Positions 13,548 to 47,733 of a stretch of 64,000 bases of DNA are shown here, piece by piece (position 1 is the stretch's first letter; each line of letters opens with the position of its first letter). A model generated the notes under the pieces. The model saw only the letters and a program-made list of their open reading frames with translations, did no database searches and had not been told where the DNA came from. Source of the stretch: an uncultured virus (IMG/VR IMGVR_UViG_3300028888_000068) (Duplodnaviria > Heunggongvirae > Uroviricota > Caudoviricetes). Made by a program: the position numbers and the translations under genes. The DNA lies in the IMG/VR virus record IMGVR_UViG_3300028888_000068; one strand, written 5' to 3'.

Positions 13548-13734
13548 GACTGTATGGTTTTATAGTGTAGTGTTCTCCGTCATAGTCATAAGGATATTTC
13601 TTCATCTCTTCACACTTTTTATGCAGTGCTGCTTTAGCTGATTTATGTGATGGGTACAAAGAAATAAATTCATTATTGCAATATAAAGCCCACTGTTTTG
13701 GTTTATATAGCAATCGTTTCTCTTCTTGTGTCAT
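13540..13734 (-). CDS. Small hypothetical protein, similar to 48888..49055
   Basis: WALY-NN-FI--Y-S pattern shared with 48888..49055. Confidence 0.6.
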   Translation of the reverse strand: MTQEEKRLLYKPKQWALYCNNEFISLYPSHKSAKAALHKKCEEMKKYPYDYDGEHYTIKPYSHD

Positions 13735-13870
13735 AGATGATCCGTATTCTCTTTAAAAAATTCTTCCAAGAATTTAAAATATTCAGGAAGTGTTAAAACT
13801 TTAATATCCTCTTTTTTCATATCAAATATAAGGAATTGCTCTCACCCGGTCTTTAATGCCTTATATAGTG

Positions 13871-14043
13871 AGGAAGGACCATAGGATGTACTTAGAAGGT
13901 TGCCTATGGGAGGGCGAGCCTAGGAGAACATGATGACTTATCCACTTGCGGCCTGGGATGACGACCTAGACTAAGGATATGGTTTTCCTAGGCATAACCC
14001 TTACCCTTAAAATAAAATAGAGAGCTCTGTGTCTCTCTTTTTT
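13871..14043 (+). ncRNA. Candidate structured small RNA
   Basis: Promoter variant at 13859-13870; stems CCATAGG/CCTATGG and GCCTAGGA/TCCTAGGC; terminator 14019-14043; no convincing ORF. Confidence 0.45.
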
Positions 14044-14918
14044 TACATAAAGAACATAGATACATACAGCCGTGCTATAAAAATTGGTGTATCAACTATA
14101 TTCTCATGAAACAAATTTGCATATATTTTGTCAATATTATCCCAAAAGATGTCAAGAACTTCGTCTGTCTTACAGGAAGCTAGGCTTTTCTTATTCTTTA
14201 TACCAGCACAAATAATCACCAGCCTAAGATCATCGGAGGTATATGATGGAACTTTTATGGATTTGAGATAGTTTTCAATCCATTTCTCATCCACCTTATT
14301 CTCTCTGAGCTCCTTAAACCACCCAACTATACGTTCTTCTGGTCGTAAATCTTTGTCTGGGATAGTTTTGGTAAAAAAGTCTATATGATTTTGAATAAAC
14401 TCCTCTATTTCTTTTTTGTCGTCCTTTTTTGTATATCTATCCAAGACCGGTTTTTCTCTAAGTCTGTTAAAAGTGGGTATAAGTAGTCTTTCCATAACAT
14501 TCTGGAAAACCGAATAGTGGGTGTGATCTTTATTGACCTCTTCTAGTCCTTTAACCCAAGCTGCAGGCAATTCCTTAAGAATTTCTGGATTTTCAAAAGT
14601 TATTGCTCGCATTATAGAGAACAGTCTCTTAGCATATACAAAGGCAACTGCTAAGATAAGGTCTTGTGGGTTATTATTACTAGGAGCCTCAAAAGATAAT
14701 TCTACTGTATATTTATAGAGATCTCTTATTCTCTTAGTTATCTTAATTAGCTCTTTTGAGGAATATTTATTATAAACTTCAAGTACTGGTCGACCTGTTT
14801 CCCATCGATTTTCAAATATTTTCTTTGGGTCTATATAATTAATTATATCCTCTGACGAAAATGCAAATCGTTCGCGTTTAGATAAAAGTTTTCTAAAAGT
14901 AATTAAATCTATTAACAT
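14043..14918 (-). CDS. Hypothetical protein
   Basis: 291-aa ORF starting 1 nt after the promoter motif. Confidence 0.75.
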   Translation of the reverse strand: MLIDLITFRKLLSKRERFAFSSEDIINYIDPKKIFENRWETGRPVLEVYNKYSSKELIKITKRIRDLYKYTVELSFEAPSNNNPQDLILAVAFVYAKRLFSIMRAITFENPEILKELPAAWVKGLEEVNKDHTHYSVFQNVMERLLIPTFNRLREKPVLDRYTKKDDKKEIEEFIQNHIDFFTKTIPDKDLRPEERIVGWFKELRENKVDEKWIENYLKSIKVPSYTSDDLRLVIICAGIKNKKSLASCKTDEVLDIFWDNIDKIYANLFHENIVDTPIFIARLYVSMFFM

Positions 14919-15664: not shown

Positions 15665-15736
15665 TATTTTTGAGTATTGGTTTTGCTTCGAAAGAATTTT
15701 ATACCCTTTCTTGTGTCGAAATTTGGTATAATTAAT

Positions 15737-15807
15737 AATCTAAGACAGGAATCGAACCTACATCTCTAGATATACATCTAGCGCTCTAACCATTAAGCTA
15801 CTTATCT
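15737..15807 (-). pseudogene. Degenerate tRNA / tRNA-like RNA
   Basis: D-arm TAGCTTAATGGTTAGAGC and T-arm GGTTCGATTCC present, but the anticodon loop is 6 nt and the acceptor stem has 2 mismatches; promoter motif at 15811-15821. Confidence 0.65.
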
Positions 15808-15834
15808 TATCATATATAAGGCATTTAGGTCTTC

Positions 15835-45556: not shown

Positions 45557-45976
45557 TTAGTCCCCGAAAAATGGAAGAAACTGTATCTCTACCTCTGTAT
45601 CTTCTCTATGTAAATACACTCCATAGTTTTTAAAATAGATTACAACAGTCCATCTATCTATTTTCCAAGATTCAGAAGCCCAAGGTAATAGGAGCATCTT
45701 ATCACGCAGTCTTTTAAAATCATCCTTAGCCTCTATACAAGTACAAAATGATTTCTTAAAGATTACATTATTCACATACACAGAATCAAAAACTGTATAT
45801 GTCATCTTTCTATATTGTCCCCAAAAACACACCTCATTCTCAGAATTCCAATTAAGTTTTCTAGCTTCTTCCGTAAGTTTTTCTATGGTCCATCTTTCTG
45901 TTATTCCATCTCTTTGTGCATATCCTGAAAAAGACATTAATAGCACAATACCAACGACTAATATAAATTTTTTCAT
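45557..45976 (-). CDS. Secreted hypothetical protein
   Basis: Signal peptide MKKFILVVGIVLLMSFSGYAQ; the A-Q cleavage pattern is typical of Bacteroidota. Confidence 0.7.
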   Translation of the reverse strand: MKKFILVVGIVLLMSFSGYAQRDGITERWTIEKLTEEARKLNWNSENEVCFWGQYRKMTYTVFDSVYVNNVIFKKSFCTCIEAKDDFKRLRDKMLLLPWASESWKIDRWTVVIYFKNYGVYLHREDTEVEIQFLPFFGD

Positions 45977-45995
45977 GTCATTTATAAGGAAATAG

Positions 45996-46027
45996 AGAAC
46001 TCAGAAATTACTTCTGAGTTCTTTTTA
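45996..46027. terminator. Terminator hairpin
   Basis: GAACTCAGAA/TTCTGAGTTC stem. Confidence 0.7.
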
Positions 46028-46042
46028 TATATATAATATAAA

Positions 46043-46395
46043 GTTATTAATTCCCGCGACAGCCCAATATAAGAGGCCGTAGGAACAACTGCAAAACTAC
46101 TACTCTTCCTTCTGGTCGAGATGAATTTAGCATGGGATTTGATAGAGCTTTGTGCTTTTAGTCCTGATCTTTGAGTTATATTGAACTTTGATCTTTCTAA
46201 CTTTAAGCTTCTTAGCTCTAAGCTTTTATTAGCCATTAATTTACGCGCTTCAAATACGTAAAATTTATCGTGTCTAGATTAAAAGTCTAGTCGATTATAC
46301 CTTTTAGCGTTATCATCGCTAAAAAACATCCTAATTTACTTCCGAATGTGAGAGAAGGCGTTATTTATGGCCTCTTTCGCCGTAGTATTAATAAC
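46043..46395 (-). ncRNA. Candidate structured RNA with heptamer repeats
   Basis: Terminal pairings 46043-51/46387-95 and 46071-78/46369-76; internal hairpins; ~9 AAAGNTY-like units. Confidence 0.6.
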
Positions 46396-46401
46396 CTTAC
46401 C

Positions 46402-47037
46402 TTAGTCCTCGATTTCTATGAAAGTAGTCGAATTACTTTCAGAAAGAACATAGTCGACGTTTGTTTTAAAGTCTTCTATATCTTTCTCGAGGGACTCTAT
46501 TTTTTCGGCAATATTGATTGGATCTACGAAAGCTGCTTCGTAGAGCTTTTCAATTGTATCTAGAGCATCTTTTTCAAGGTCCTTTGCCTTTGTGTCTCCA
46601 CTTTTTCCAGTCTGGTCCTTGACGATTGTCTCAACACGAGCTCTGTTTTCAGCTTCAACAGCTTCTTTCTCTTTTTGAGCTCTAGTAAACTGAAGCTTTA
46701 AAACTCTCAGTTCCTCCTCCTGCAGGTAAATAAGATTTTTTCTTACAATTGCCTGCTGGACTGTCATTTCTTTGCCTCCAATCTTAACTATTGTCGTTAA
46801 GTTGGATTTATCTATCTCTTCTTTTAATCTGGTTATTCGATTTCTTATGGCTTCAACGCTCTGAAATTGAGCAATGGCCTTTCCTTCGAATACTTCTTTT
46901 GTGAATTGAGAGTTTGGCTGACGGAGAGCCTGACCTTTTCTAACTGCAATAAAGCTAGAACGGTTTAGCTCAGAGCCATACCGATTTTTCAACAGTTTTA
47001 ATTCTGCTAATGCTCTGGTAATTGTTATCTTTGCCAT
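46402..47037 (-). CDS. Coiled-coil protein (DIP1984/DUF6847-like, from recall)
   Basis: ITITRALAELKLL...IDKSNLTT...VDP...VDYVLSESNSTTFIEI. Confidence 0.7.
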   Translation of the reverse strand: MAKITITRALAELKLLKNRYGSELNRSSFIAVRKGQALRQPNSQFTKEVFEGKAIAQFQSVEAIRNRITRLKEEIDKSNLTTIVKIGGKEMTVQQAIVRKNLIYLQEEELRVLKLQFTRAQKEKEAVEAENRARVETIVKDQTGKSGDTKAKDLEKDALDTIEKLYEAAFVDPINIAEKIESLEKDIEDFKTNVDYVLSESNSTTFIEIED

Positions 47038-47076
47038 AAACTTATAAATTTTAAAGTGTTGAAATAAAATAAACGC

Positions 47077-47177
47077 CGCCTAATTATTAAGCTTCCGATT
47101 CAAACGGAATATTGAATATACTAGTAGTAGTATATCCCGGTTTGTCCCTCTTAAGCCTAGTCCATAATAATTAAGCG
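47077..47177 (-). other. Structured leader with a T-arm-like hairpin
   Basis: 13-bp near-perfect closing stem; TTCCG-TTTGAAT-CGGAA; ATATACTA/TAGTATAT. Confidence 0.4.
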
Positions 47178-47383
47178 AAAATCTAATTTATTATGGTTTT
47201 TGTTTGTCTAGAAAATAGTTAATTTAAAATGCACCTTATGAATCAGAACTTCGGCCCTATAATAACGACCTACTTTCTCCCGAAGATATCTCTTCTCGGT
47301 TCTAGTATTCTGGGATACATTACGTATACCAGAAGGGTTCATAATGTATATAATATATGAATTTTAATGTCTTGAAAAGAATG

Positions 47384-47482: not shown

Positions 47483-47733
47483 TTAGGTTTTGTGTTGAAA
47501 GTTTTTAATTCATTTATAAGAGTATGAGGGCCGTGAAGTCTGCTCCTGTTTTTAGGGGGTACCAAGCGGATATAGCAGGCTTGGCCAAGACGATGATGAT
47601 TCCCACAAAGGCCGCAACGATGATGATGAGCCTGCTAGAAACCAATACTGTTCCGCTAAAAATATCGCGGCCCTATTCATACTCAGTTCTCATTTATAAG
47701 AATTTGAGGGTTTCTTAGTTACCCTCTTTTTTG

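What the first reader, a model, noticed from the sequence alone, without database searches (positions are those of the whole stretch)
46043..47037. Coiled-coil protein followed by a ~355-nt closed RNA with AAAGNUY repeats: candidate RNP system
Seen: 6 nt after the stop of 46402..47037 begins an element whose ends pair (GTTATTAAT/ATTAATAAC, GCGA/TCGC, AAGAGGCC/GGCCTCTT). It encloses three hairpins (46240-62, 46274-90, 46302-24) and a run of ~9 heptamer-like units on the minus strand (AAAGCTT, AGAGCTA, GAAGCTT, AAAGTTA, AAAGATC, AAAGTTC, AAAGATC, AAAGCAC, AAAGCTC; ~46145-46226). A terminator follows. The protein resembles, from memory, the uncharacterised DIP1984/DUF6847 family. Inference: an oligomeric protein binds the repeats one per subunit, as TRAP or CsrA do on repeat RNAs, forming a toxin-antitoxin-like or scaffold RNP.
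Basis: partly seen in the sequence, partly recalled or inferred. Interest (0 to 1): 0.85.

Follow-up and report, generated by a model that had tools for sequence, protein, structure and literature searches.

The report
Phage protein paired with ornate repeat RNA
A small helical protein gene is followed by a roughly 350-base, highly knotted noncoding RNA carrying a run of seven-base repeats, and this unannotated pair recurs in hundreds of phages, including T5, and in some Bacillus chromosomes.

Summary
Six bases after the 211-aa gene (46402..47037, minus strand) lies a ~355-nt noncoding element (46042..46396). It is closed by long-range helices and carries an array of AAAGNUN heptamers.

In 28 relatives, a seven-helix structure with two pseudoknots is 91.5% paired. 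23 of 34 pairs show compensatory change, and 0 of 500 shuffles reached this. A helix-plus-box signature follows the protein gene in 130 of 163 distinct loci. These include T5 (gene T5.085), Klebsiella KB57, Pseudomonas M5.1, Bacillus and Vibrio phages, and stand-alone loci in Bacillus chromosomes.

No Rfam 15 family matches. The T5 stretch matches 444 phage records, and most sampled records leave it unannotated. Eight literature searches found no description. The overlapping 84-aa ORF is not conserved.

The protein is phrog_1491, mislabelled 'tail fiber'. It has the fold of 3KDQ (DUF6847/DIP1984) and is predicted to self-associate.

Best reading: a co-transcribed ribonucleoprotein module in which the protein binds the RNA, probably at the heptamers. 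Binding and function are inferred, not shown. The toxin-antitoxin idea has no support.

The parts
46402..47037 (-). Gene for the 211-aa helical protein (phrog_1491 family; 3KDQ/DIP1984-like fold)
   Evidence: ORF. phrog_1491 at E 7e-52. AlphaFold model pLDDT 90.9. 3kdq at VIA Z 11.3 over 151 of 152 residues. RNA contigs of runs X1 and X6 both begin at 47041, 4 nt before the ATG (weak hint of a transcript start).
46042..46396 (-). Whole noncoding RNA element, from the P1 5' strand to the P1 3' strand
   Evidence: No Rfam match at E <= 10. No conserved ORF.
46387..46396 (-). P1 5' strand (GGUUAUUAAU); pairs with 46042-46051
   Evidence: Read from the sequence. In other clades P1 is continuous with P2; the contiguous closing helix has a median of 10 bp in 130 elements.
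46379..46382 (-). P2 5' strand; pairs with 46057-46060. It is followed by the conserved GAAA box at 46375-46378.
   Evidence: helix 1: 96.4% paired, with 3 of 4 pairs changed on both sides.
46369..46376 (-). P3 5' strand (AAGAGGCC); pairs with 46071-46078
   Evidence: helix 2: 8 of 8 pairs show compensatory change and 96.9% are paired. Family-wide, the longest stem averages 6.27 against 4.52 in shuffles.
46360..46364 (-). P8 5' strand (AUAAC of the AAAUAACGCC box). It pairs with the P7 loop at 46085-46089, forming a pseudoknot.
   Evidence: helix 3: 95.7% paired, with 3 of 5 pairs changed on both sides. In T5 and KB57 the equivalent is ATCTTAC/GTAAGAT and ATCTTG/CAAGAT, seen by eye.
46326..46357 (-). 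P4 hairpin (46353-46357 with 46339-46343). Its loop (46344-46349) pairs with 46326-31, giving an H-type pseudoknot.
   Evidence: P4 is 78.5% paired on a gappy alignment. The loop-to-downstream stem averages 6.6 against 4.7 in shuffles and is >= 5 bp in 26 of 28 sequences.
46240..46324 (-). Three clade-specific hairpins in the variable region. In other phages this region holds different hairpins or even a tRNA.
   Evidence: tRNAs nested here in L057 and L179.
46145..46226 (-). Array of AAAGNUN heptamers (nine clear units)
   Evidence: Family logo is A-A-A-G-n-U-n. Spacings of 7 (207), 14 (71) and 21 (25) were counted among 664 logo units from 89 elements.
46132..46140 (-). AAAUCC box and P5 5' strand. 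P5 pairs with 46063-46067 and crosses P3, forming a pseudoknot.
   Evidence: helix 5: 96.4% paired, with 2 of 5 pairs compensatory and the CC:GG pairs invariant. Covariation is visible across all clades.
46079..46120 (-). P6 hairpin (46118-20 with 46103-05) and P7 hairpin (46097-46100 with 46079-82). P7 carries the conserved loop GUUUUGCAGUUGU.
   Evidence: helices 6 and 7: 91.7% and 78.8% paired, each with 3 compensatory pairs.
46057..46078 (-). 3' strands of P3 (46071-78), P5 (46063-67), the conserved CUG (46060-62) and P2 (46057-60)
   Evidence: RNA contigs of X6 and X12 both end at 46057, the last base of P2 (weak hint of a 3' end).
45996..46022 (-). Terminator-like hairpin after the RNA

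Best explanation
This is a conserved two-part module: a gene for a ~210-aa helical protein and, on the same transcript immediately 3' of it, a ~300-355-nt noncoding RNA.

The RNA folds into a compact core held by long-range helices (P1/P2, P3) and at least two, probably three, pseudoknots: P5 crossing P3, P8 between a 5' single strand and the P7 loop, and an H-type knot at P4. From this core hangs an array of roughly 9-14 heptamers, AAAGNUN.

Shown: the RNA structure, its conservation, and its strict linkage to the protein gene.

Inferred: the protein is predicted to self-associate and has a basic N-terminal half. I infer that it binds this RNA, most likely on the heptamer array with a register of 7 (or 14) nt per binding unit. 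This would give a defined ribonucleoprotein particle that acts in trans.

The cellular target is unknown. The module is constantly embedded in, or sits next to, tRNA gene clusters in phages, and it also exists as a stand-alone locus in Bacillus chromosomes. This points to RNA metabolism or translation rather than virion structure.
For: RNA structure:
- On 28 relatives, the 7-helix model is 91.5% paired against 72.3% in shuffles and 26-51% with slid partners.
- The covariation score is 0.532 against 0.176, and 0 of 500 shuffles reached it. 23 of 34 pairs changed on both sides.
- G-U pairs and the repeats occur only on the gene strand. The densest 100 nt holds >= 4 AAAG in 140 of 163 regions, against 3 of 163 on the opposite strand.

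Linkage to the protein gene:
- The helix-plus-box signature is found 3' of the gene in 130 of 163 distinct loci. Controls gave 3 reverse complements (regions of >= 420 nt, duplicates not removed) and 14 of 534 shuffles.
- With perfect helices it is found in 104 of 163, with 0 hits in both controls.
- All 5 annotated phages inspected have an empty gap of 365-559 nt after the gene.
- Of 10 exact pattern matches in IMG/VR, the 3 with a perfect P5 and repeats all have the protein upstream.
- In 91 Bacillaceae genomes, 16 have the protein and 15 of those have the RNA directly adjacent. No protein-less genome has a full-length RNA.
- The gap from the stop codon to the closing helix has a median of 17 nt.

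Not coding: the longest ORFs in 28 relatives run 21-97 aa at shifting places and strands. The closest relative's match to the 84-aa ORF is split between two frames.

Expression:
- The stretch is held by 14 RNA-library runs.
- In four laid runs the contig covering gene plus RNA has a higher word depth than flanking contigs (X1 674 against 78-99; X6 20.4 against 2.8; X3 43 against 9).
- Single contigs span the gene and most of the RNA. Contig depth is a poor measure of expression.

Protein:
- The four-copy prediction 'supports binding; it does not show it'. Score 0.59, best of 3 controls 0.00.
- That mark was reached by 20 of 30 proteins solved as pairs of one chain and by 1 of 23 solved as single chains.
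- The runs agree in >= 89% of contacts and partner pLDDT is >= 81. The calibration used two copies and its own alignments, so the counts hold only roughly.
- Residues 1-100 carry net +11 and residues 141-211 net -12.

Sister family: genes of DUF6847 (= 3kdq) are also followed by a different conserved RNA-like element in the Bacillota loci inspected.
Against: - No tool here tests protein-RNA binding. Adjacency alone does not prove it.
- The protein as a whole is slightly acidic (median pI 5.76 in 45 relatives) and has no known RNA-binding domain.
- The array is not shown to be single-stranded. Folded alone it is only 46% unpaired, with median z -1.25 and 31% of arrays below -2. The heptamers are partly self-complementary.
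- The unbiased column-pair scan did not list a conserved helix internal to the array, but repeats align ambiguously.
- 33 of 163 loci fail the automated signature. Most look like true members by eye, but a few (L037, L039-L041, L056) have a different downstream element.
- The family-wide test of P8 did not discriminate (6.94 against 6.39).
- The RNA contigs cannot show strand, ends or level, and no DNA run was laid as a control.
Confidence: 0.6

Rival explanations
1. The RNA works on its own, or on a host factor. For example, it could be a decoy or sponge whose heptamers soak up a host RNA-binding protein, nuclease or tRNA, or it could be an RNA-only machine like ROOL/GOLLD. The neighbouring protein would then be only a co-expressed helper or unrelated cargo.
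For: - The core is far more elaborate than a protein sponge needs: three pseudoknots.
- The RNA sits in tRNA operons, with tRNAs directly after it in five of the loci scanned (L001, L046, L057, L061, L075) and nested inside it in L057 and L179. ROOL and GOLLD share this context as reported (PMC9241854, passages read).
- The protein has no known RNA-binding domain.
Against: - Linkage and order are very tight across hosts from Proteobacteria to Bacillota.
- The sister protein family DUF6847 has its own downstream RNA-like element. A shared RNA-partner role explains this most simply.
- No full-length RNA was found without the protein.
Confidence: 0.2
2. The element is a cis-acting 3' untranslated region of the protein's own mRNA. 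It would act as a stabiliser or an autoregulatory site and have no trans function.
For: - The element starts a median of 17 nt after the stop codon.
- No sigma-70-like promoter lies between the gene and the element.
- Single RNA contigs run from 47041 across the gene into the element.
Against: - About 300 nt with three pseudoknots and a conserved repeat array is excessive for a stabiliser.
- In several phages a tRNA follows directly or is nested inside. tRNA processing would then release the element from the mRNA.
Confidence: 0.1
3. It is a type III-like toxin-antitoxin pair: a toxic protein neutralised by a repeat RNA.
For: A repeat RNA lies next to a small protein gene. The protein is predicted to self-associate.
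Against: - The repeats are 7 nt and lie downstream of the gene, not about 36 nt and upstream.
- There is no endoribonuclease fold.
- There is no significant PADLOC match (best E 0.0032, to unrelated models).
- The module is carried by lytic phages in 714 records.
- It is stably kept between housekeeping genes in Bacillus.
Confidence: 0.03
4. It is a DNA-level element, with iterons of a replication origin or partition site bound by the coiled-coil protein.
For: Short direct repeats lie next to a helical protein gene.
Against: - The repeats and helices are strand-specific and use G-U pairs.
- Compensatory changes preserve RNA helices, including crossing ones.
- The 7-nt units are too short and too closely packed for typical iterons (general knowledge).
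- The stretch is present in RNA libraries.
Confidence: 0.02

Closest known systems
CsrA with CsrB/RsmZ-type sponge RNAs
   Same: One RNA carries many copies of a short motif that a small, self-associating protein could bind. This is how the module may work.
   Different: - The motif here is AAAGNU in a strict 7-nt register, not GGA in hairpin loops.
- The protein has no CsrA fold.
- The RNA has a large pseudoknotted core.
- The RNA is encoded on the protein's own transcript.
- No Rfam match.
TRAP bound to the trp leader (and HutP-type repeat binders)
   Same: Regularly spaced short repeats are read by one subunit each in an oligomer.
   Different: - TRAP reads triplets spaced 2-3 nt apart and is a beta-sheet ring (recalled knowledge).
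- Here the period is 7 and the protein is an elongated helical bundle with a small sheet.
- The stoichiometry is unknown.
tmRNA with SmpB
   Same: - Similar size.
- The ends are closed by a long-range helix.
- Several pseudoknots flank a less-structured central segment.
- There is a dedicated small protein partner.
   Different: - ARAGORN finds no tmRNA.
- No Rfam tmRNA hit.
- No acceptor or CCA end is seen.
- There is no tag reading frame: the repeats shift frame every unit.
- The protein is unrelated to SmpB.
ROOL and GOLLD large ornate RNAs
   Same: Phage or prophage-borne, next to tRNA genes, abundant, function unknown (PMC9241854 discussion; PMC12286853 seen in listing and abstract only).
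   Different: - No Rfam match to either.
- This RNA is smaller.
- It carries a heptamer array.
- It always has a dedicated upstream protein gene.
OLE RNA with its Oap proteins
   Same: A large structured bacterial RNA that functions as an RNP with proteins encoded beside it (PMC12054373, abstract in the listing).
   Different: Different RNA and different proteins. OLE is about 600 nt and confined to Bacillota extremophiles and anaerobes. This module is mainly in phages.
DIP1984 / DUF6847 family (PDB 3KDQ)
   Same: - Same fold: Z 11.3 with 151 of 152 residues aligned.
- A shared I-[ND]-x-[ST]-N ... G..T..EA motif.
- DUF6847 genes also have a conserved downstream RNA-like element.
   Different: - About 155 aa against 210 aa.
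- The profile-profile link is weak (probability 20%, E 0.0011).
- The downstream RNA is a different one with no heptamers.
Type III toxin-antitoxin systems (ToxIN)
   Same: A protein gene is adjacent to a tandem-repeat RNA.
   Different: See the rival explanation: repeat length, gene order, fold and context all differ.

Membership tests
phrog_1491 (labelled 'tail fiber protein') | Full-length match to the PHROG profile | tested here: met
   E 7.1e-52, residues 1-210 on profile positions 2-210 of 211.
Phage tail fiber proteins (the functional label) | Lies in the virion/tail gene module and has a fibre-like fold | tested here: not met
   - The gene sits among early, tRNA and replication genes in T5, KB57, M5.1 and Brizo.
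- It stands alone between housekeeping genes in Bacillus.
- The model is a helical bundle like 3kdq.
- In Thurquoise it lies upstream of portal genes but after a tRNA array.
DUF6847 / DIP1984 (PF20935) | Pfam profile match above the curated cut-off | tested here: not met
   The window protein has no hit at E <= 1. 5 of 45 relatives hit at E <= 1, the best at 6.5e-05.
DUF6847 / DIP1984 (PF20935) | Fold of PDB 3KDQ | tested here: met
   - VIA-align Z 11.3, rmsd 8.1, 151 of 152 residues; the next best is Z 7.5.
- Foldseek E 0.035.
- Profile E 0.018.
- 3kdq matches a DUF6847 alignment at E 6e-44.
Any Rfam 15 family (tmRNA, RNase P, 6S, CsrB/Rsm, ToxI, ROOL, GOLLD, OLE, raiA and others) | Covariance-model match | tested here: not met
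   - No match at gathering score in the window.
- Only chance-level hits at E <= 10 over 45900-47300.
- Nothing over the element in 5 named phages or in 5 bacterial loci.
tmRNA | tRNA-like acceptor/T-arm domain plus a tag reading frame | tested here: not met
   ARAGORN finds tRNAs only. The heptamer register rules out a fixed reading frame.
CsrB/RsmZ-type sponges | Multiple GGA motifs in hairpin loops, and a CsrA-family partner | tested here: not met
   The motif is AAAGNU. The partner has no CsrA domain.
Type III toxin-antitoxin | A ToxN/AbiQ-like endoribonuclease preceded by ~34-40-nt tandem repeats | tested here: not met
   There is no such fold or defence-model match. The repeats are 7 nt and downstream.
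Repeat-RNA-binding oligomer (works-like class: TRAP, CsrA) | Direct, repeat-dependent binding of the protein to the RNA | not testable with these tools
   Only indirect support is available: linkage, predicted self-association and a basic N-terminal half.

The most novel reading that the evidence does not exclude
The DIP1984/DUF6847/phrog_1491 superfamily is a previously unrecognised class of RNA-binding proteins. Each branch would be encoded with its own ornate partner RNA.

The phage branch would form a particle that displays a dozen Lys-codon-like AAAG units from a pseudoknotted core. That particle would act on the translation or tRNA apparatus, for example as a decoy or shield in the conflicts over tRNAs that drive phages to carry tRNA genes.

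If so, T5 and hundreds of well-studied phages carry an overlooked RNP.
Probability: 0.25. Interest if true: 0.95.

Novelty: categorically new. Interest (0 to 1): 0.85.

Why it matters
**Scale.** The protein family has 3523 clusters at 50% identity with E <= 0.001, of which 1474 are at E <= 1e-30. It matches 714 deposited phage genomes. These include the classic phage T5 and many Salmonella, Klebsiella, Pseudomonas, Vibrio and Bacillus phages considered for therapy. In those records the gene is called 'hypothetical' or, wrongly, 'tail fiber'. In a spread sample of 60 of the 444 records matching the T5 element, most have nothing annotated over the RNA.

**What it would add.** A ~300-nt RNA with three pseudoknots and a strict heptamer array is among the more complex bacterial or phage RNAs without a known function. 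Unlike ROOL, GOLLD or raiA, it comes with a dedicated protein.

**Testability.**
- The module is present in T5 with E. coli K-12 and in non-pathogenic Bacillus chromosomes, so genetics, RIP-seq and cryo-EM are immediately feasible.
- It also gives a first functional lead for the structural-genomics orphan 3KDQ/DUF6847.

Tried and rejected
- **Single-protein scan of viral contigs** found no relative. The alignment-based scans worked.
- **DNA search of phage records** with the window element gave no match. The element is recognisable only by structure and motifs.
- **Earlier findings of this scan:** nothing to show.
- **No whole genome** is held for the window.
A tighter pattern replaced it.
- **Phage K long RNAs next to tRNAs** (PMC9241854, passages read). 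The one stretch read (13595-14229) has no heptamers, and gp233 is unrelated (probability 0.1%). The second stretch was not read. This is a different RNA.
- **RNAalifold on the DUF6847 downstream alignment** was uninformative (8 pairs, -2.15 kcal/mol). A hand-drawn two-helix test gave only modest support.
- **Family-wide crude test of P8** did not discriminate.
- **Folding the array alone** did not settle whether it is single-stranded.
- **PADLOC:** only insignificant hits.
- **NCBIfam and the PDB sequence search** with the single protein gave nothing meaningful.
- **ESM Atlas:** the nearest named cluster is DUF6847 at 0.87, on 16% of members. This is a lead only.
- **Coding reading (the 84-aa ORF)** is rejected.
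- **Parts of the laid stretch without RNA-contig cover** in X3, X6 and X12 are not interpreted.
Full report
**1. The observation**

On the minus strand, the 211-aa ORF 46402..47037 ends 6 nt before a stretch whose ends pair:
- GGTTATTAAT (46387-46396) with ATTAATAACT (46042-46051).
- GCGA with TCGC.
- AAGAGGCC (46369-46376) with GGCCTCTT (46071-46078).

The three hairpins at 46240-46324 and nine AAAG-type heptamers at 46145-46226 are present. A terminator-like hairpin follows at 45996-46022.

The 421-nt stretch folds with z = -3.39, and 0 of 100 shuffles fold as well. The repeat chain is unique in the window: 5 in-phase units against at most 2 elsewhere.

**2. Setting**

The window is a divergent large phage. 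It has five tRNAs, a DnaB-like helicase, a primase, a thymidylate synthase, a nucleotidyltransferase and a radical-SAM protein. No whole genome is held for it.

A motif, CTTATAAATG, occurs 7 times against 1.18 expected. It precedes tRNA-Gln, two further short units upstream of the protein gene, and the gene downstream of the RNA. No sigma-70-like promoter lies between the protein gene and the RNA.

**3. The protein**

- It matches phrog_1491, labelled 'tail fiber protein', at E 7e-52.
- It matches no Pfam or NCBIfam family meaningfully.
- tblastn finds it in 714 phage records, 711 of them over >= 80% of its length, all below 60% identity. These include T5-like phages, Vequintavirinae, Otagovirus, Bacillus Herelleviridae, Vibrio phages and jumbo phages.
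- A profile search of 1.84 billion representatives gives 3523 clusters at E <= 0.001 and 1474 at E <= 1e-30. Nearly all of the 150 listed are 202-231 aa, with one of 280.
- The AlphaFold model (pLDDT 90.9) is a long helical bundle with a small four-stranded sheet at one end.
- Its only outstanding structural match is 3kdq: VIA Z 11.3 with 151 of 152 residues aligned, next best 7.5; Foldseek E 0.035.
- 3kdq belongs to DUF6847 (E 6e-44).
- At sequence level the link is weak: hhalign probability 20%, E 0.0011. 5 of 45 relatives touch PF20935 at E <= 1. The ESM Atlas lead is 0.87.
- Four copies are predicted to associate through a symmetric interface: score 0.59 against a best control of 0.00, with the calibration caveats given under evidence.
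- Residues 1-100 are net +11 and the C-terminal 70 residues net -12.
- The 'tail fiber' label does not fit the gene's position or fold.

**4. The element recurs wherever the gene does**

In all 5 annotated phages examined, the gene is followed by an empty gap:
- KB57: 402 nt.
- M5.1: 426 nt.
- T5: about 440 nt.
- Thurquoise: 559 nt.
- Brizo: 365 nt.

Each gap holds the same run of AAAG units and an AAAUCC box.

I collected 80 viral, 80 metagenomic and 36 bacterial-genome loci by the protein.

Among 163 distinct downstream regions of at least 420 nt:
- 140 have >= 4 AAAG within 100 nt on the gene strand, against 3 on the other strand.
- 86 have >= 3 neighbouring units in 7/14/21 register, against 0 on the other strand.
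- A structural signature (AAAYC box, a 5-bp P5 helix to a C[U/A]G box, a 5-bp P2 helix to a GAA box) is found in 104 of 163 with perfect helices. Controls gave 0 reverse complements and 0 of 534 shuffles.
- With one mismatch allowed it is found in 130 of 163. Controls gave 3 reverse complements and 14 of 534 shuffles.
- The window, T5 and the four other named phages all pass.
- Most of the 33 misses look like members by eye. A few carry something else, for example arrays of AAAAGGA in L039 and L041.

The closed element has a median length of 307 nt and begins a median of 17 nt after the stop codon.

**5. Structure**

An alignment of 28 relatives of the window's version was scanned without prior assumptions for covarying column stacks. 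This returned P2, P3, P5, P6 and an unexpected helix, P8, between the conserved AAAUAAC segment and the loop of hairpin P7.

The seven-helix model was then counted:
- 91.5% of cells are paired, against 72.3% in shuffles and 26-51% with partners slid.
- The covariation score is 0.532 against 0.176, and 0 of 500 shuffles reached it.
- 23 of 34 pairs have changes on both sides.
- P3 has compensatory change in 8 of 8 pairs.

P5 crosses P3, and P8 crosses P7 and P5, so there are two pseudoknots.

A third, H-type knot joins the P4 loop to the next segment. Its stems average 6.6 against 4.7 in shuffles and are >= 5 bp in 26 of 28 sequences, with different sequences in different members.

Across all clades:
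- P3 is supported (6.27 against 4.52; >= 5 bp in 114 of 130).
- P8 is supported only in the window clade and by eye in T5 and KB57, where ATCTTAC/GTAAGAT and ATCTTG/CAAGAT covary. My crude family-wide test of P8 did not discriminate.

G-U pairs and strand-specific repeats show that the structure belongs to the transcript of the gene strand.

**6. The repeats**

In 89 elements, a logo built from 664 AAAG units reads A-A-A-G-n-U-n. Spacings are 7 (207 times), 14 (71) and 21 (25), with 8 and 15 as minor classes. The median is 8 exact AAAG per element.

In GC-rich hosts the unit drifts (CAAGNC in a Deinococcus MAG, AACGUUC in Bacillus), but the period stays.

Whether the array is single-stranded is open:
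- The unbiased scan did not list a conserved helix internal to the array.
- Folded alone, arrays are only 46% unpaired, with median z -1.25.

**7. Not coding**

The 84-aa ORF is not conserved. The longest ORFs in the 28 relatives range from 21 to 97 aa at different places and strands. In the 71%-identical relative, the similarity is split between two frames.

**8. Expression**

The stretch is held by 20 public runs, 14 of them RNA libraries from animal gut samples. Four were laid, from four studies, all as contigs.
- In each, the contig covering the gene and most of the RNA has a higher word depth than flanking contigs: 674 against 78-99, 43 against 9, 20.4 against 2.8, and 7.8 against 0.6 in the one flanking bin with any cover (X12).
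- Two runs' contigs start at 47041, 4 nt before the ATG.
- Two runs' contigs end at 46057, exactly the last base of P2.

Contigs cannot show strand, true ends or level, and no DNA run was laid. I therefore take this only as consistent with one abundant transcript running from 47041 to about 46057.

**9. Beyond phages**

Of the 36 bacterial-genome loci, many lie on large chromosomal contigs of Bacillus species.
- In B. altitudinis and B. paralicheniformis, the pair stands alone between ordinary genes: permease, subtilase and PTS genes in one; rok and TetR/SMR genes in the other.
- In Pseudobacteroides cellulosolvens it sits beside conflict-system genes.
- In 91 Bacillaceae genomes, 16 have the protein.
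- In 15 of those, BLAST finds the RNA directly adjacent.
- Three protein-less genomes hold only partial remnants of the RNA.

The sister family DUF6847 was found in 15 of 301 Bacillota genomes over its cut-off. In the loci inspected, its genes are followed by a different conserved element (blocks ACUACC and GUGAGGGUGGG) with a covarying 5-bp helix. The formal support is modest: covariation 0.245 against 0.183, reached by 7 of 500 shuffles. Neither element matches Rfam.

**10. Is it known?**

- No Rfam 15 family matches.
- The T5 element (downstream of T5.085) matches 444 phage records, and 432 of them are >= 90% identical to it.
- In a spread sample of 60 of those records, most have no feature annotated over the match.
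- Full-text searches found no description. The terms covered T5 noncoding RNA, DIP1984, structured RNA next to tRNAs, Tequintavirus, ROOL/GOLLD-type phage RNAs, T5.085, DUF6847, and phage structured-RNA discovery.
- A catalogue of 10,006 candidate viral structured RNAs (PMC10690425) does not describe it in the passages I read. I did not open its supplements, so an unnamed overlapping candidate cannot be excluded.
- Papers in subscription journals were not searchable.

**11. Reading**

The best-supported explanation is a co-transcribed RNP module.

Shown:
- A conserved, pseudoknotted RNA.
- A strict 7-nt repeat array.
- Obligate linkage to a self-associating helical protein.
- Presence in RNA libraries.

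Inferred:
- The protein binds the RNA.
- It does so on the heptamers.
- The particle acts in trans, probably on RNA metabolism or translation. The tRNA context suggests this: tRNAs lie directly after the RNA in five of the loci scanned and inside it in two.

The rivals are an RNA that acts alone or on a host factor, a purely cis 3' UTR, a toxin-antitoxin pair, a DNA element, and a coding region. They are weighed in their own sections.

**12. Verdict**

This is a real, widespread and apparently undescribed RNA-protein pair, and it is present in model phage T5. Interest is high. The mechanism remains to be tested.

Noticed in passing
window 47530-47690 (-): A ~165-nt GC-rich element closed by a ~14-bp stem. 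It starts right after a CTTATAAATG motif and lies downstream of tRNA-Gln. It has the highest RNA-contig depth of the 5 kb laid (about 3000 in X1, 147 in X3). No Rfam or tRNA call. A 42-aa ORF overlaps it. It is probably another small stable RNA.
   Followed up: partly
window 22523, 22565, 45979, 47511, 47691, 47809, 48767: The motif CTTATAAATG occurs 7 times against 1.18 expected. It sits just before tRNA-Gln, short RNA-like units and genes. It is likely a phage promoter or start signal. RNA contigs of two runs begin 4 nt before the ATG of the 211-aa gene, after a related TTTATAAG.
   Followed up: partly
L208-L221 (downstream of DUF6847 genes in Bacillota genomes): Genes of the 3KDQ/DUF6847 family are followed by a different conserved noncoding element of about 200-250 nt. 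It has the blocks ACUACC and GUGAGGGUGGG..GGGG, a T-arm-like hairpin in some members, and one covarying 5-bp helix. No Rfam match.
   Followed up: partly
L057 2213-2287; L179 1907-1983: A tRNA(-like) gene is nested inside the variable region of the RNA. In L001, L046, L057, L061 and L075 a tRNA follows the RNA directly. tRNA processing enzymes would therefore cut at or within the RNA.
   Followed up: partly
L039, L041 (viral contigs): The same protein gene is followed here by 17 or more tandem AAAAGGA heptamers flanked by inverted repeats. This is a variant array with a different unit.
   Followed up: no
G315, G320, G349 (Bacillaceae genomes): Partial BLAST remnants of the Bacillus-type RNA occur in genomes without the protein gene. 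They look like decayed modules.
   Followed up: no
window 15736-15808 (-): ARAGORN calls a tRNA with an irregular anticodon loop ('tRNA-???'). Rfam scores it as a tRNA at 44 bits.
   Followed up: no
window 46087 and 47667: RNA contigs of X3 and X1 carry adapter-like loose ends at these places. This may mark frequent fragment ends inside the RNA's P7 loop and inside the 165-nt element.
   Followed up: no
L166 1090-1730 (Staphylococcus phage K, 13595-14229): The published abundant long noncoding RNA next to tRNA-Met in phage K is a different RNA. It has no heptamers, and the upstream gp233 is unrelated.
   Followed up: partly
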